Below the pieces are notes generated by a model. The model did no database searches. It saw nothing but the letters and a program-made list of their open reading frames with translations, and was not told the DNA's origin. 64,000 nucleotides of DNA from a virus (taxonomy: Duplodnaviria; Heunggongvirae; Uroviricota; Caudoviricetes): IMG/VR virus record IMGVR_UViG_3300020160_002689, positions 20,134-84,133 of that record. One strand, given 5' to 3'. Shown piece by piece: positions 11,802 to 13,063 of the stretch. The first letter of the stretch is position 1. Each line of letters begins with the position of its first letter. The translations under genes were made by a program, and so were the position numbers.

Positions 11802-11919
11802 GCTGACTTCAATATAAAACTAAATCACCTACCGGTATTTTTAATTTGTAGTCTATAGTTAGTAGGGGATTTTCACCTTAATTTACTTATAACCTAATCT
11901 AACTATAAATCACTTTTTG

Positions 11920-11993
11920 TAGGCAAGGTGGGTATCGAACCCACTATCTTCTGTGTATAAGACAGATGCTTTTACCGTCTAAGCTACTTGCCC
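11920..11993 (-). tRNA. tRNA-Ile(UAU) (tentative)
   Basis: Clean cloverleaf: D-stem GCTT/AAGC, anticodon stem TCTGT/ACAGA with loop CUUAUAC, T-arm GTGGG-TTCGATA-CCCAC. Confidence 0.55.
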
Positions 11994-12000
11994 AATTTTG

Positions 12001-12074
12001 TAGTCTATATGGGATTCGAACCCGTGTCTTACCCGTGAAAGGGGCACGTCCTGACCTGACTAGACGAATAGACC
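12001..12074 (-). tRNA. tRNA-Glu(UUC)
   Basis: Strong similarity to bacterial tRNA-Glu (TTCGTCTAG..CAGGAC, CCCTTTCACGG); loop CUUUCAC. Confidence 0.75.
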
Positions 12075-12078
12075 ATTA

Positions 12079-12726
12079 TTATTTTCTTCCTTTTATCCAA
12101 CCATCATTTAGATAAATTTCAAATTCTTCTTTCTTTATTTTCTTATTATTTCCTTCTTTTGTAATCCAACAAGTTCCAAATTGTGAATTCTTTTCACCTT
12201 TTTGATTAATAGAATTCTTTTGTGCAATTATACTTTTAGTTTTATCTGTATGTTTTTTACCATTCCAATCAAAAAAATACTTCTTTTCTCTTCTACCATC
12301 CTCATATTGTTTTTTATTTCTTTCTGATGTATCAATTTTAAATTCATTAACCCATTCTTTATTTTTCCATAGATTGGTCATCCATATAGAAGCACCCTTT
12401 CTCATTTTAATTTGGTGTTCATCATTAATTATTCCACCCAAACCACCCTTCTTTAGATTCATACATAAACTATCATTAAGTATCATTTCCTCTGTAATCC
12501 ATCTTATCTCTGCATCTACTAACTCTTCCCTTGAGGAAAAAAACTCCAAAAAATAAATACTAAAATTCTCTTTACCATATTTTCTAATGGAATATCTTAA
12601 TATTTTTCCAGAACCTAAATATCCATCATCTAACTTATAAGTACTGTGCATTCCATAATAATACTTACCATTTATCAAATTTGTAGTTTTATACAAAAAG
12701 TGATACTTTATTTTATTTTTAGACAT
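12079..12726 (-). CDS. GIY-YIG homing endonuclease (paralog of 10656..11279)
   Basis: First 50 aa nearly identical to the other GIY-YIG gene, C-terminus diverged. The upstream regions of the two genes are also near-identical. Confidence 0.8.
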   Translation of the reverse strand: MSKNKIKYHFLYKTTNLINGKYYYGMHSTYKLDDGYLGSGKILRYSIRKYGKENFSIYFLEFFSSREELVDAEIRWITEEMILNDSLCMNLKKGGLGGIINDEHQIKMRKGASIWMTNLWKNKEWVNEFKIDTSERNKKQYEDGRREKKYFFDWNGKKHTDKTKSIIAQKNSINQKGEKNSQFGTCWITKEGNNKKIKKEEFEIYLNDGWIKGRK

Positions 12727-12779
12727 TTTTAACTTTTTTATTATATATATTAAACTTAAAAAAGTCTAAATGTCTGCGG

Positions 12780-12851
12780 TACTAGTGACGGGACTCGAAC
12801 CCGCATCTCCCGGTTTGAAAAACCAGTTTCCTGCCATTAGAAGACACTAGC
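12780..12851 (-). tRNA. tRNA, anticodon read as UUC (identity uncertain)
   Basis: Acceptor GCTAGTG/CACTAGT, T-arm GCGGG-TTCGAGT-CCCGT, anticodon stem CTGGT/ACCGG with loop UUUUCAA. CC is encoded after the discriminator. Confidence 0.5.
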
Positions 12852-12902
12852 ATAATGATTTTTTGCCTTCCTCAGAGAAGCTTAAAATCTAACAGCATAC
12901 AG

Positions 12903-12985
12903 TGGGTAGAGAGGGATTCGAACCCCCGAACTCAAATGAGAACAGATTTACAGTCTGTCAGCTTTAACCACTTGCATATCTACCC
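12903..12985 (-). tRNA. tRNA-Tyr(GUA)
   Basis: Anticodon arm ACAGA-CUGUAAA-UCUGU identical to the bacterial tRNA-Tyr arm; long variable arm; acceptor GGGTAGA/TCTACCC. Confidence 0.7.
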
Positions 12986-12990
12986 TGTTG

Positions 12991-13063
12991 TAGTCTATAC
13001 GGGACTCGAACCCGCGTCTCTACCTTGAAAGGGTAGTGTCCTAACCAACTAGACGAATAGACC
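12991..13063 (-). tRNA. tRNA-Glu(UUC), paralog of 12001..12074
   Basis: Same acceptor (GGTCTAT/ATAGACT) and D-arm family as the other tRNA-Glu; loop CUUUCAA. Confidence 0.65.

What the first reader, a model, noticed from the sequence alone, without database searches (positions are those of the whole stretch)
11849..13063. Duplicated tRNA-Glu copies flank a GIY-YIG gene plus two tRNAs, with a third fragment of the repeat nearby
The tRNA-Glu genes at 12001..12074 and 12991..13063 share their acceptor and D-arm and the same 3'-flank (TGTAGTCTATA...). They bracket the GIY-YIG gene 12079..12726, the UUC-loop tRNA at 12780 and tRNA-Tyr. A third copy of the 3'-flank motif (TTGTAGTCTATAGTTAGTAGGGG, about 11849..11871) with a decayed T-arm lies upstream. 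The two GIY-YIG genes (10656, 12079) are near-identical for 50 codons and share about 45 bp of upstream sequence (TTTTTTATTATATATATTAAA...AAAGTC(A)TAAATGTCTGCGGT). This looks like footprints of endonuclease-driven cassette insertion or duplication into a tRNA gene, with target-site duplication.
Basis: seen in the sequence. Interest (0 to 1): 0.6.

Follow-up and report, generated by a model that had tools for sequence, protein, structure and literature searches.

The report
SegB-like homing endonucleases in phage tRNA array
Two related selfish endonuclease genes of the phage T4 SegB type sit in the gaps between tRNA genes of an uncultivated giant phage. The look-alike tRNA-Glu genes around one of them are old paralogs, not insertion scars, so this is a new example of a known arrangement.

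Summary
The sequence features are real, but the "target-site duplication" reading fails. All genes here are on the minus strand.

- **The endonucleases.** ORFs 12726-12079 (HEG2) and 11279-10656 (HEG1) are full-length homologs of T4 SegB (35-38% identity, E 1e-35 to 1e-37). SegB is a free-standing GIY-YIG homing endonuclease that also sits inside a tRNA cluster and cuts at tRNA gene 3' ends.
- **Placement.** Each cassette (5'UTR plus ORF) exactly fills an inter-tRNA spacer. It starts right after the upstream tRNA's 3' "ACC(G)".
- **Mobility.** Related megaphage contigs carry one cassette, the other, or neither at these sites.
- **The shared ~45 bp upstream.** This is the cassette's own regulatory region. 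It forms a hairpin that pairs the AUG, with a promoter-like TATAAT in the loop, as proposed for T4 segB.
- **Modularity.** Codons 1-55 are 96% identical between the two copies, more than to their orthologs, which suggests gene conversion. The central third falls into two types that track the insertion site.
- **The tRNA-Glu pair.** The two genes are 83% identical, no closer than to tRNA-Glu genes of other phages. The repeat ends 2-6 nt beyond the tRNA. Relatives without these endonucleases also have 2-4 Glu and 1-2 Tyr genes.
- **The "3' flank".** It is the acceptor stem. The third copy is a 13-nt remnant.

The parts
12079..12726 (-). HEG2: SegB-like free-standing GIY-YIG homing endonuclease gene (215 aa), central module of type 2 (the tRNA-Glu site type)
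   Evidence: 38% identity to T4 SegB over the full length, E 9e-35. PHROG 314 'homing endonuclease', E 1e-33. Predicted fold: top PDB hit is the I-TevI catalytic domain. Orthologs of 80, 77 and 70% identity lie at the same site in L087/L088, L090 and L094.
12727..12777 (-). HEG2 5'UTR: hairpin pairing AGACAUUU with AAAUGUCU, with the start codon in the 3' arm, and a promoter-like TAGACT-17-TATAAT inside it. It begins right after the upstream tRNA's ACC.
   Evidence: MFE -13.0 kcal/mol, z -4.2, 0 of 200 shuffles as stable. Promoter-like match 10 of 12. Conserved in orthologs.
10656..11279 (-). HEG1: SegB-like homing endonuclease gene (207 aa), central module of type 1 (the tRNA-Gly site type)
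   Evidence: 35% identity to T4 SegB, E 1e-37. 61% identity to HEG2. An ortholog with 83% nucleotide identity lies at the same site in L082.
11280..11332 (-). HEG1 5'UTR: the same AUG-occluding hairpin, with a promoter-like ATGACT-16-TATAAT
   Evidence: MFE -17.6 kcal/mol, z -6.8. Promoter-like match 10 of 12.
12778..12851 (-). tRNA immediately upstream of HEG2 and its probable target-site tRNA. It is a mosaic tRNA-Glu with the body of a Glu(CUC) lineage and a UUC anticodon arm, ending ...ACC|GCAGAC.
   Evidence: ARAGORN Glu(ttc); Rfam 57 bits. 53 of 57 positions match L094 Glu(ctc) outside the anticodon arm; the arm matches L087 Glu(ttc) at 16 of 17.
11333..11405 (-). tRNA-Gly(UCC) immediately upstream of HEG1, with the same ...ACC|GCAGAC junction
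   Evidence: The orthologous Gly(tcc) is followed by 7-62-nt spacers in the HEG1-less loci L090, L087 and L094.
12000..12074 (-). tRNA-Glu(UUC) 'GluC', 4 nt downstream of the HEG2 stop codon
   Evidence: Best outside matches: L083/L084 (91% over 46 nt) and L005 (88% over 59 nt).
12990..13063 (-). tRNA-Glu(UUC) 'GluA', lying between two divergent tRNA-Tyr genes. It is an ancient paralog of GluC.
   Evidence: The Tyr-Glu(-Tyr) order is conserved in L001, L003, L005, L082 and L090.
12902..12985 (-). tRNA-Tyr(GUA)
   Evidence: 96-98% identical to the tRNA-Tyr of L082 and L090.
11846..11872 (-). Short remnant matching the 3' end of tRNA-Glu (AATCCC...TATAGACTACAAA). Probably the last trace of a decayed tRNA-Glu gene within the 117-nt spacer 11802-11918.
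   Evidence: No tRNA model hit there. No counterpart in the fetched relatives.
11730..11801 (-). Degenerate Glu-like tRNA with a 6-nt anticodon loop (AUUUCG)
   Evidence: ARAGORN 'tRNA-???'. Rfam tRNA 33.2 bits, just above the threshold.
10575..10649 (-). tRNA-Ala(UGC), 6 nt downstream of the HEG1 stop codon

Best explanation
The window comes from an uncultivated giant phage. Its relatives are on 620-640 kb contigs. Its minus-strand tRNA array carries two paralogous free-standing homing endonuclease genes of the T4 SegB type.

**Proposed mechanism (inferred from T4 SegB biochemistry)**
1. The enzyme binds the T-arm (GGTTCRANTCC) and acceptor 3' strand of one particular tRNA gene in a co-infecting relative that lacks the cassette.
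2. It cuts at or just past the tRNA 3' end.
3. Recombinational repair from the cassette-bearing genome copies the cassette, and some flanking tRNA DNA, into the spacer.

**What is shown here**
- Both proteins are homologous to SegB.
- Each cassette starts right after the upstream tRNA's ACC(A/G) and ends 4-6 nt before the next tRNA.
- Both sites are polymorphic (occupied or empty) among relatives.
- Each site goes with its own central protein module: type 1 follows tRNA-Gly(UCC) and type 2 follows a Glu(CUC)-lineage tRNA.
- The 5'UTR plus first 55 codons is a shared module that looks homogenised between the two copies.

**What is inferred**
- The cleavage position.
- That the central module sets target specificity.
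- That expression is restrained by the AUG-occluding hairpin in read-through tRNA precursor transcripts and relieved by initiation from the promoter-like element inside the hairpin.

The repeated tRNA-Glu and tRNA-Tyr genes are long-standing paralogs of this phage clade's array, not products of the insertion.
For: **Identity of the proteins**
- Full-length similarity to T4 SegB, E 1e-35 to 1e-37.
- PHROG 314 homing endonuclease.
- SegB Y17 and G19, the residues mutated in the catalytic-dead mutant of PMC13096335, align with invariant Y23 and G25. E73 and N90 are also invariant.
- The AlphaFold model has pLDDT 83. Its top PDB hit is the I-TevI catalytic domain (prob 1.0, TM 0.62 normalised to the target).

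**Same architecture as T4**
- T4 segB lies between tRNA-Ile and tRNA-Arg, 41 nt after one and 5 nt before the other.
- SegB recognises the T-psi-C motif plus CCAR and cuts at the tRNA 3' end (PMC2330249).

**Mobility**
- An HEG1 ortholog is present in L082, and a divergent homolog (42%) in L004 between Gly(tcc) and Gly(gcc).
- HEG1 is absent from L090, L087, L094, L003 and L005, where Gly(tcc) is followed by 5-62-nt spacers.
- HEG2 orthologs are present in L087/L088, L090 and L094 after a Glu(ctc) tRNA.
- HEG2 is absent from L082, where Glu(ctc) is followed by a 7-nt spacer and then the same long tRNA-like gene that follows the endonuclease gene in L094.

**Modular identity pattern**
- Codons 1-55 are 88-97% identical among all members. 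Window HEG1-HEG2 is 96% (93% at third positions), against 90% (73-80% at third positions) to their orthologs.
- Columns 96-175 are 85% (type 1) and 69-78% (type 2) identical within types but 50-55% between types.

**Regulation**
- Significant hairpins occlude the AUG in 11 of 13 family members, including T4 segB and members with unrelated UTR sequence.
- The two best promoter-like matches in the region lie inside these hairpins.

**Family size and context**
- 3474 homologs at E<=1e-10.
- The association of SegB homologs with tRNAs is published (PMC13096335).
Against: - No biochemical data exist for these proteins.
- Both fall below Pfam's GIY-YIG and NUMOD3 thresholds. Sequence profiles do not reach any solved GIY-YIG structure. 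The Foldseek E-value for I-TevI is only 0.04.
- Promoter-like matches in the region as a whole are not more frequent than in shuffles (10 versus 13.9), and the host's promoter type is unknown.
- The high identity of the N-terminal module could partly reflect nucleotide-level constraint rather than gene conversion.
- The relatives are only 75-83% identical and their arrays are heavily rearranged, so 'empty site' comparisons are between diverged genomes, not isogenic ones.
Confidence: 0.8

Rival explanations
1. A cassette (GIY-YIG gene plus two tRNAs) was inserted or duplicated into a tRNA-Glu gene, and the two tRNA-Glu copies plus the third fragment are target-site duplications or footprints of that event.
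For: - The two tRNA-Glu genes bracket HEG2 and two tRNAs and share their acceptor stem and D-stem.
- A 13-nt copy of their 3' end lies about 150 nt further along.
Against: - The repeat stops 2-6 nt outside the tRNA bodies.
- The copies are only 83% identical, with paired stem changes, and each is as close or closer to a tRNA-Glu in another phage.
- Relatives with no SegB-like gene have the same multi-copy Glu/Tyr layout.
- Orthologs of HEG2 always follow the Glu(CUC)-lineage tRNA but have different downstream neighbours: Glu, Tyr or a long tRNA-like gene. The mobile unit is therefore the endonuclease cassette, not the Glu-to-Glu interval.
- Homing by double-strand-break repair does not create target-site duplications (established knowledge).
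Confidence: 0.04
2. A 'frozen accordion'. The multiple diverged tRNA-Glu, Tyr and Gly copies, the mosaic tRNA upstream of HEG2, the 6-nt-loop Glu-like gene and the Glu 3' remnant are long-term residues of SegB-type, break-induced segmental amplification and ectopic repair within the array. They would have been retained because extra tRNA copies counter tRNA-cleaving host defences.
For: - SegB drives tandem amplification of tRNA-Tyr plus segB in phage T6 under Septu pressure (PMC13096335).
- The duplicated isotypes here (Glu, Tyr, Gly) are exactly those around the two endonuclease genes.
- The tRNA abutting HEG2 is a mosaic.
- tRNA-repair genes flank the arrays: a Thg1-like gene and RtcB.
Against: - There are no tandem or near-identical units.
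- The paralogs are old and have counterparts in other genomes.
- Endonuclease-free relatives have equal copy numbers.
- The second array (29.3-31.0 kb) also has triplicated His and duplicated Phe, Trp and Lys genes without any SegB-like gene.
- Experimental amplifications collapse without selection.
Confidence: 0.12
3. The two ORFs are domesticated or decaying remnants with no present mobility. They would be kept only as passengers, or for another role such as excluding competitor phages.
For: - Both are intact, and their orthologs persist at the same sites in several diverged genomes.
- T4 SegB-type enzymes also act in competition between phages (PMC2330249).
Against: - The presence/absence pattern at two sites is the signature of ongoing gain and loss.
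- Reading frames are intact and catalytic residues invariant.
- The very large family lies mostly on short, varied contigs.
- Exclusion and homing are not mutually exclusive.
Confidence: 0.1

Closest known systems
Phage T4 SegB (free-standing GIY-YIG homing endonuclease in the T4 tRNA gene cluster; Brok-Volchanskaya et al. 2008, PMC2330249)
   Same: - Homologous over the full length (35-38% identity) and of similar size (207 and 215 versus 221 aa).
- Sits between two tRNA genes on the same strand, a few nt upstream of the next tRNA.
- Has a 5' hairpin that pairs the start codon.
- The cassette junction coincides with the position where SegB cuts (the tRNA 3' end, after CCA+1).
- Present or absent among related phages.
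   Different: - The host genome is an uncultivated megaphage rather than a T-even phage.
- There are two paralogs in one array, each tied to a different tRNA and carrying a different central module.
- A sigma-70-like promoter motif lies inside the hairpin, whereas the T4 authors report no promoter near segB.
- Cleavage and homing are untested here.
SegB-driven segmental amplification of tRNA-Tyr in phage T6 (Chihara et al. 2026, PMC13096335)
   Same: - A SegB-family nuclease lies next to tRNA-Tyr and other tRNA genes.
- That paper already reports that SegB homologs co-localise with tRNAs across many phages, including phages of Bacteroidota and Cyanobacteriota.
   Different: - The T6 amplification gives tandem, near-identical 718-bp units with a truncated segB and is unstable.
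- Here the repeats are dispersed and old (61% protein identity between the endonucleases, 83% between the tRNA-Glu genes), and both endonuclease genes are full-length.
I-TevI and other T4 intron-encoded GIY-YIG endonucleases
   Same: - N-terminal GIY-YIG catalytic fold (top structural match).
- Modular layout: catalytic domain, then linker, then DNA-binding region.
- Translational control by a hairpin with a promoter within or next to it, as described in PMC2330249.
   Different: - Not intron-encoded.
- About 22% identity to I-TevI in the structural alignment; no significant sequence-profile match to any solved structure.
Nuclease genes at boundaries of genetic exchange between phages (PMC10448857)
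   Same: The neighbours downstream of the HEG2 orthologs differ between genomes, and the tRNA abutting HEG2 is mosaic. That is the pattern expected where recombination tracts end near a homing endonuclease gene.
   Different: This is only a qualitative resemblance. I saw only this paper's title and abstract in the search results and did not read it, and I did not map recombination breakpoints statistically.

Membership tests
SegB-like free-standing GIY-YIG homing endonuclease | Full-length sequence homology to an experimentally characterised member (T4 SegB) | tested here: met
   BLASTP 35-38% identity across residues 8-215 versus 2-218, E 9e-35 and 1e-37. PHROG 314 E 1e-33.
SegB-like free-standing GIY-YIG homing endonuclease | Conserved GIY-YIG catalytic residues (Tyr of the first motif, Tyr-x-Gly of the second, and the downstream Glu and Asn) | tested here: met
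   Y12, Y23, G25, E73 and N90 are invariant in 22- and 33-sequence alignments. Y23 and G25 align with SegB Y17 and G19, whose mutation abolishes activity (PMC13096335). The conserved Arg position was not resolved.
SegB-like free-standing GIY-YIG homing endonuclease | GIY-YIG fold of the N-terminal domain | tested here: met
   AlphaFold2 model with mean pLDDT 83 (residues 10-90 score 88-96). The top Foldseek PDB hit is the I-TevI catalytic domain 1LN0: prob 1.00, TM 0.62 on the target, E 0.04. The next hits have prob <=0.14.
SegB-like free-standing GIY-YIG homing endonuclease | Match to the curated Pfam GIY-YIG / SegE_GIY-YIG / NUMOD3 models above the gathering score | tested here: not met
   PF01541 7.2 bits (cut-off 22.6), PF19835 14.7 bits (cut-off 25), PF07460 15.7 bits (cut-off 20.4). 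TIGR01453 27 bits (cut-off 56). Several 50-65% identical homologs do carry these Pfam hits.
SegB-like free-standing GIY-YIG homing endonuclease | Free-standing gene in an intergenic position, not inside an intron or intein | tested here: met
   Each ORF lies between two complete tRNA genes, 51-53 nt after one and 4-6 nt before the next.
SegB-like free-standing GIY-YIG homing endonuclease | Presence/absence polymorphism at the same site among related genomes | tested here: met
   HEG1 site: occupied in the window, L082 and L004; empty in L090, L087, L094, L003 and L005. HEG2 site: occupied in the window, L087/L088, L090 and L094; empty in L082.
SegB-like free-standing GIY-YIG homing endonuclease | Site-specific double-strand cleavage of the cassette-less allele and preferential inheritance in mixed infection | not testable with these tools
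   Needs purified protein and phage crosses.
   The Glu-Glu repeat ends 2-6 nt outside the tRNA. Empty and occupied alleles differ by spacer replacement with no duplicated bases. Multi-copy Glu is present in endonuclease-free relatives.
SegB-type segmental amplification (tandem 'accordion') | Head-to-tail, near-identical repeat units containing the nuclease gene and a tRNA | tested here: not met
   No tandem array beyond 9-11-nt A/T repeats. The two cassettes are 1.4 kb apart, share 61% protein identity, and have different flanking tRNAs.

The most novel reading that the evidence does not exclude
In this megaphage clade the SegB-like nucleases may not be mere passengers. Their breaks at tRNA 3' ends, repaired from paralogous tRNA genes, may be what keeps the arrays in flux. 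That flux would include anticodon-arm swaps (CUC to UUC in the tRNA abutting HEG2), decayed Glu copies and multi-copy Glu/Tyr/Gly. The two central protein modules would be a natural example of re-targeting one catalytic chassis to different tRNA genes. This would extend the 2026 'SegB accordion' from a laboratory escape route to a long-term shaper of viral tRNA repertoires.
Probability: 0.15. Interest if true: 0.55.

Novelty: new member of a known kind. Interest (0 to 1): 0.3.

Why it matters
It shows that the T4 SegB arrangement also operates in uncultivated 600-kb-class phages. That arrangement is a GIY-YIG homing endonuclease gene lodged in a tRNA cluster, starting at a tRNA 3' end and guarded by an AUG-occluding hairpin.

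The window also offers a natural pair of enzymes with the same catalytic and C-terminal modules but different central modules, each tied to a different tRNA site. That pair could serve as a test case for how SegB-type enzymes choose targets.

For annotation, the lesson is practical. Repeated tRNA isoacceptors around such genes should not be read as insertion scars.

The biology itself is already established, so the finding is useful but not surprising.

Tried and rejected
- **Pfam and NCBIfam scans of both ORFs.** Nothing reached a curated threshold.
- **Sequence searches of the PDB.** Both the single sequence and a 22-sequence profile returned only spurious repeats from designed 'Pizza' proteins and no GIY-YIG entry. 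The fold comparison was needed instead.
- **Remnants of the endonuclease genes in the arrays of L001, L002, L003 and L005.** tblastn at E<=10 found none.
- **A tRNA body around the third fragment.** No Rfam tRNA hit in 11802-11918. Its predicted hairpin is not significant (z -1.6). No homolog of that spacer exists in any fetched locus.
- **Tandem amplification.** Tandem Repeats Finder found only 9-11-nt A/T repeats.
- **HEG2 plus the downstream tRNA-Glu as one inserted module.** I considered this from the comparison with L082. HEG2 orthologs have different downstream neighbours (Glu after 51 nt, Tyr after 0 nt, a long tRNA-like gene), so the evidence supports only the cassette itself as the conserved unit. 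Co-conversion of the tRNA-Glu remains possible but unproven.
- **Complete orthology map of the arrays.** The arrays are too rearranged among relatives of 75-83% identity for a full tRNA-by-tRNA assignment.
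Full report
**1. What is in the sequence**

All genes between 9.5 and 14.3 kb are on the minus strand. In the direction of transcription the order is:

| Feature | Coordinates |
|---|---|
| weak tRNA hit | 13618-13548 |
| tRNA-Met | 13516-13443 |
| terminator-like hairpin | 13202-13170 |
| tRNA-Tyr | 13153-13071 |
| tRNA-Glu(UUC), 'GluA' | 13063-12990 |
| tRNA-Tyr | 12985-12902 |
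| tRNA with UUC anticodon | 12851-12778 |
| ORF HEG2 | 12726-12079 |
| tRNA-Glu(UUC), 'GluC' | 12074-12000 |
| tRNA-Ile(UAU) | 11993-11919 |
| Glu-like tRNA with a 6-nt anticodon loop | 11801-11730 |
| tRNA-Gly(UCC) | 11649-11576 |
| 102-nt tRNA-like gene | 11569-11468 |
| tRNA-Gly(UCC) | 11405-11333 |
| ORF HEG1 | 11279-10656 |
| tRNA-Ala(UGC) | 10649-10575 |
| atypical Ala-like tRNA | 10567-10493 |
| Thg1-like gene | 10335-9508 |

These assignments come from ARAGORN, Rfam and Pfam.

**2. Checking the observation**

- **The endonuclease cassettes.** They match at a spacing of about 1445 nt. One block is 260 nt at 88% identity, covering the 5'UTR and the N-terminus. A second is 124 nt at 81%, covering the C-terminus through the stop codon to the start of the next tRNA. 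The middle is weaker.
- **The two tRNA-Glu genes.** They match at a spacing of 990 nt (59 nt at 80% plus 22 nt at 95%).
- **Generic T-arm matches** among many tRNAs.

The Glu-Glu repeat spans 11998-12080 versus 12988-13069. That is the tRNA plus 2 nt on one side and 6 A/T bases on the other.

It is mostly the tRNA itself.

The 12-mer TTGTAGTCTATA occurs exactly at 11846, 11998 and 12988. The third site aligns to tRNA-Glu only over TATAGACTACAAA, plus AATCCC across a 7-nt gap. 0 of 500 shuffles reach its score against GluC, and 25 of 500 against GluA. No tRNA model hits that spacer. It is best read as the last trace of a decayed tRNA-Glu.

The two ORFs are identical for 51 residues and 61% identical overall.

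**3. What the ORFs are**

Neither reaches a Pfam threshold. Other evidence identifies them:

- A nucleotide search hit T4 segB.
- The proteins align with SegB end to end at 35-38% identity, E 1e-35 to 1e-37.
- They match PHROG 314, 'homing endonuclease'.
- In alignments of 22 and 33 family members the GIY-YIG hallmark residues are invariant: Y12, Y23, G25, E73 and N90.
- Y23 and G25 align with SegB Y17 and G19, whose mutation kills the enzyme (PMC13096335).
- Sequence profiles do not reach any solved structure.
- An AlphaFold2 model (pLDDT 83) has the I-TevI catalytic domain as its only credible PDB match: prob 1.00, TM 0.62 on the target.

The family is very large, with 3474 proteins at E<=1e-10.

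**4. The same architecture as T4**

In T4, segB lies between tRNA-Ile and tRNA-Arg. It starts 41 nt after the first and ends 5 nt before the second. Here the spacings are 51-53 nt and 4-6 nt.

SegB recognises a 27-bp site made of the T-psi-C motif GGTTCRANTCC, a degenerate stretch and CCAR. It cuts at the tRNA gene's 3' end (PMC2330249).

In the window and in all orthologous loci the cassette begins immediately after the upstream tRNA's ACC(A/G). The junctions read ...ACC|GCAGAC...ACCA|TAGAC and ...ACC|GTAGAC. This is the position where SegB would cut. That the enzymes here cut there is an inference.

**5. Mobility: occupied and empty sites**

Relatives were fetched through the neighbouring Thg1-like gene, through HEG2 itself and from a 634-kb uncultured phage record.

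*HEG1 site (after tRNA-Gly(UCC)):*
- Occupied in the window and in L082 (83% nucleotide identity).
- Occupied by a 42% homolog in L004.
- Occupied in L001 by an unrelated Cys-rich H-N-H-like ORF.
- Empty in L090 (62-nt spacer), L087 (56 nt), L094 (7 nt), L003 (5 nt) and L005 (6 nt).

*HEG2 site (after a Glu(CUC)-lineage tRNA):*
- Occupied in the window, L087/L088 (80% protein identity), L090 (77%) and L094 (70%).
- Empty in L082. There Glu(CUC) is followed by AAAAATT and then the same long tRNA-like gene that follows the endonuclease gene in L094.

No duplicated bases flank the cassettes. Occupied and empty alleles differ by replacement of the spacer.

**6. The tRNA-Glu copies are old paralogs**

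- GluA and GluC are 83% identical.
- GluC is 84% identical to a tRNA-Glu in L005, and GluA is 85% identical to one in L001 (local matches).
- Their differences include paired changes in the anticodon stem (my reading of the two sequences).
- Every related array has 2-4 tRNA-Glu and 1-2 tRNA-Tyr genes, often in Tyr-Glu(-Tyr) order.
- That includes L001, L002, L003 and L005, where tblastn finds no SegB-like sequence even at E<=10.
- Tandem Repeats Finder sees no tandem units.

The target-site-duplication idea is rejected. The idea that a mobile endonuclease cassette is tied to tRNA genes stands.

**7. What the shared upstream 45 bp is**

Both 5'UTRs fold into a long hairpin. AGACAUUU, directly after the tRNA, pairs with AAAUGUCU, which contains the start codon. 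An inner stem pairs GACUUUUUU with AAAAAAGUC. The energies are -13.0 and -17.6 kcal/mol, with z -4.2 and -6.8.

An AUG-pairing hairpin is predicted in 11 of 13 family members examined. These include T4 segB and members whose UTRs have unrelated sequence. The T4 authors proposed the same occlusion for segB.

The two best sigma-70-like matches of the region, TAGACT-17-TATAAT and ATGACT-16-TATAAT, lie inside these hairpins. Promoter-like matches are not enriched in the region overall.

The inferred logic is as follows. Read-through tRNA precursor transcripts keep the gene silent. Transcripts that start inside the hairpin are translatable. This is not shown.

**8. Modular evolution**

| Alignment columns | Identity pattern |
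|---|---|
| Codons 1-55 | 88-97% among all six genes |
| Codons 1-55, window HEG1 vs HEG2 | 96% (third positions 93%) |
| Codons 1-55, each window copy vs its orthologs | 90% (third positions 73-80%) |
| Columns 96-175, within type 1 (window HEG1, L082) | 85% |
| Columns 96-175, within type 2 (window HEG2, L087, L090, L094) | 69-78% |
| Columns 96-175, between types | 50-55% |
| C-terminus | 77-90% throughout |

The pattern in codons 1-55 points to homogenisation between the two copies, or to very recent exchange. The type of central module correlates perfectly with the insertion site in this small sample. That fits a role for the central module in target choice, which is an inference.

**9. 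Comparison with the literature, and verdict**

The association of SegB homologs with tRNA genes across many phages is published, as is SegB-driven amplification of tRNA-Tyr (PMC13096335). Homing into tRNA clusters was shown in 2008 (PMC2330249).

The window therefore holds new members of a known kind. The modest new details are two site-specific paralogs in one array, the exact junction at the tRNA 3' end, and the conserved regulatory hairpin.

A more adventurous reading is that these nucleases keep the array in flux. It is hinted at by the mosaic tRNA abutting HEG2 and by the decayed Glu copies. It is weakened by endonuclease-free relatives having the same copy numbers. I give it about 0.15.

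Noticed in passing
window 12778-12851 (-); compare L094 4875-4948 and L087 4794-4866: The tRNA just upstream of HEG2 is a mosaic. Outside the anticodon arm it matches a Glu(CUC) tRNA of L094 at 53 of 57 positions. Its anticodon arm matches a Glu(UUC) tRNA of L087 at 16 of 17. The same body with different anticodon arms is also seen in L005 4342-4416 versus L087 4874-4950, so anticodon-arm swaps between CUC and UUC seem to recur. The window itself has no Glu(CUC) gene.
   Followed up: partly
window 30465-30893 (-); L001 9127-9672 (-): A 142-aa Cys-rich ORF has an H-N-H-like motif by eye (EFDH...CGNCHKKRT) but no Pfam hit. It lies in the second tRNA array and overlaps the 5' end of tRNA-Trp (30392-30478). 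It is 40% identical (E 1e-29) to the ORF that follows tRNA-Gly(UCC) in L001, which is the HEG1 site. A second family of endonuclease-like genes therefore seems to use the same tRNA spacers.
   Followed up: partly
window 28442-29110 (-): A 222-aa ORF just downstream of tRNA-Arg (29281-29366) has N-terminal helix-turn-helix domains and a sub-threshold Endonuclease_7-like C-terminus. It may be another homing-endonuclease-like gene.
   Followed up: no
window 9508-10335 (-), 13684-14253 (-), 31785-32816 (-): A Thg1-like tRNA 5'-end repair enzyme, a dephospho-CoA kinase (CoaE) and an RtcB RNA ligase flank the two tRNA arrays. The Thg1-like gene is conserved next to tRNA arrays in at least 79 viral contigs. 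This looks like a tRNA maintenance and repair kit.
   Followed up: partly
window 29281-31002 (-): The second tRNA array has repeated isoacceptors: His(GUG) x3, Phe(GAA) x2, Trp(CCA) x2 and Lys(UUU) x2. It has no SegB-like gene. Some of these tRNAs are unusually long (86-89 nt for Arg, His and Trp).
   Followed up: no
window 11730-11801 (-): A Glu-like tRNA with a 6-nt anticodon loop (AUUUCG). ARAGORN calls it 'tRNA-???' and Rfam gives 33 bits. It may be a decaying gene or an unusual decoder.
   Followed up: no
window 11468-11569 (-), 10493-10567 (-), 13548-13618 (-), 13071-13153 (-): Several atypical tRNA-like genes:
- 11468-11569: a 102-nt gene with good acceptor and T arms (Rfam 36.6 bits).
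- 10493-10567: an Ala(UGC)-like gene with G3:U70 and an enlarged D-arm, missed by ARAGORN.
- 13548-13618: a weak tRNA hit (23.6 bits).
- 13071-13153: a tRNA-Tyr that scores only as a weak tRNA-Sec-like hit in Rfam.

Similar long tRNA-like genes occur in L082 (about 3480-3590), L094 and L001 10552-10675.
   Followed up: no
window 13170-13202 (-); L082 3100-3135: A strong intrinsic-terminator-like hairpin followed by a T-run ends only about 12 nt before tRNA-Tyr 13153 and is conserved in L082. Its role is unclear; it might be a terminator with read-through or a processing signal.
   Followed up: no
window 11406-11467 (-); L087 6039-6094: The spacer before tRNA-Gly(UCC) 11405 contains a small hairpin (ACCUUUGCAAAGGU). 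It is homologous to the spacer between Gly(tcc) and Gly(gcc) in L087. This is a conserved non-tRNA element of the array with unknown function.
   Followed up: no
L087 2771-3049 and 3990-4310: In this relative the CoaE gene is called as two ORFs about 940 nt apart. The gap might hold an insertion such as an intron or a mobile element.
   Followed up: no
window array and relatives (tRNA-Glu sequences printed): By eye, the tRNA-Glu genes I inspected pair G1 with U72 and have A73. Nearly all of those printed end ...AC, and few encode a full CCA. The tRNAs directly upstream of HEG2 orthologs in L087 and L090 do encode ACCA.
   Followed up: no
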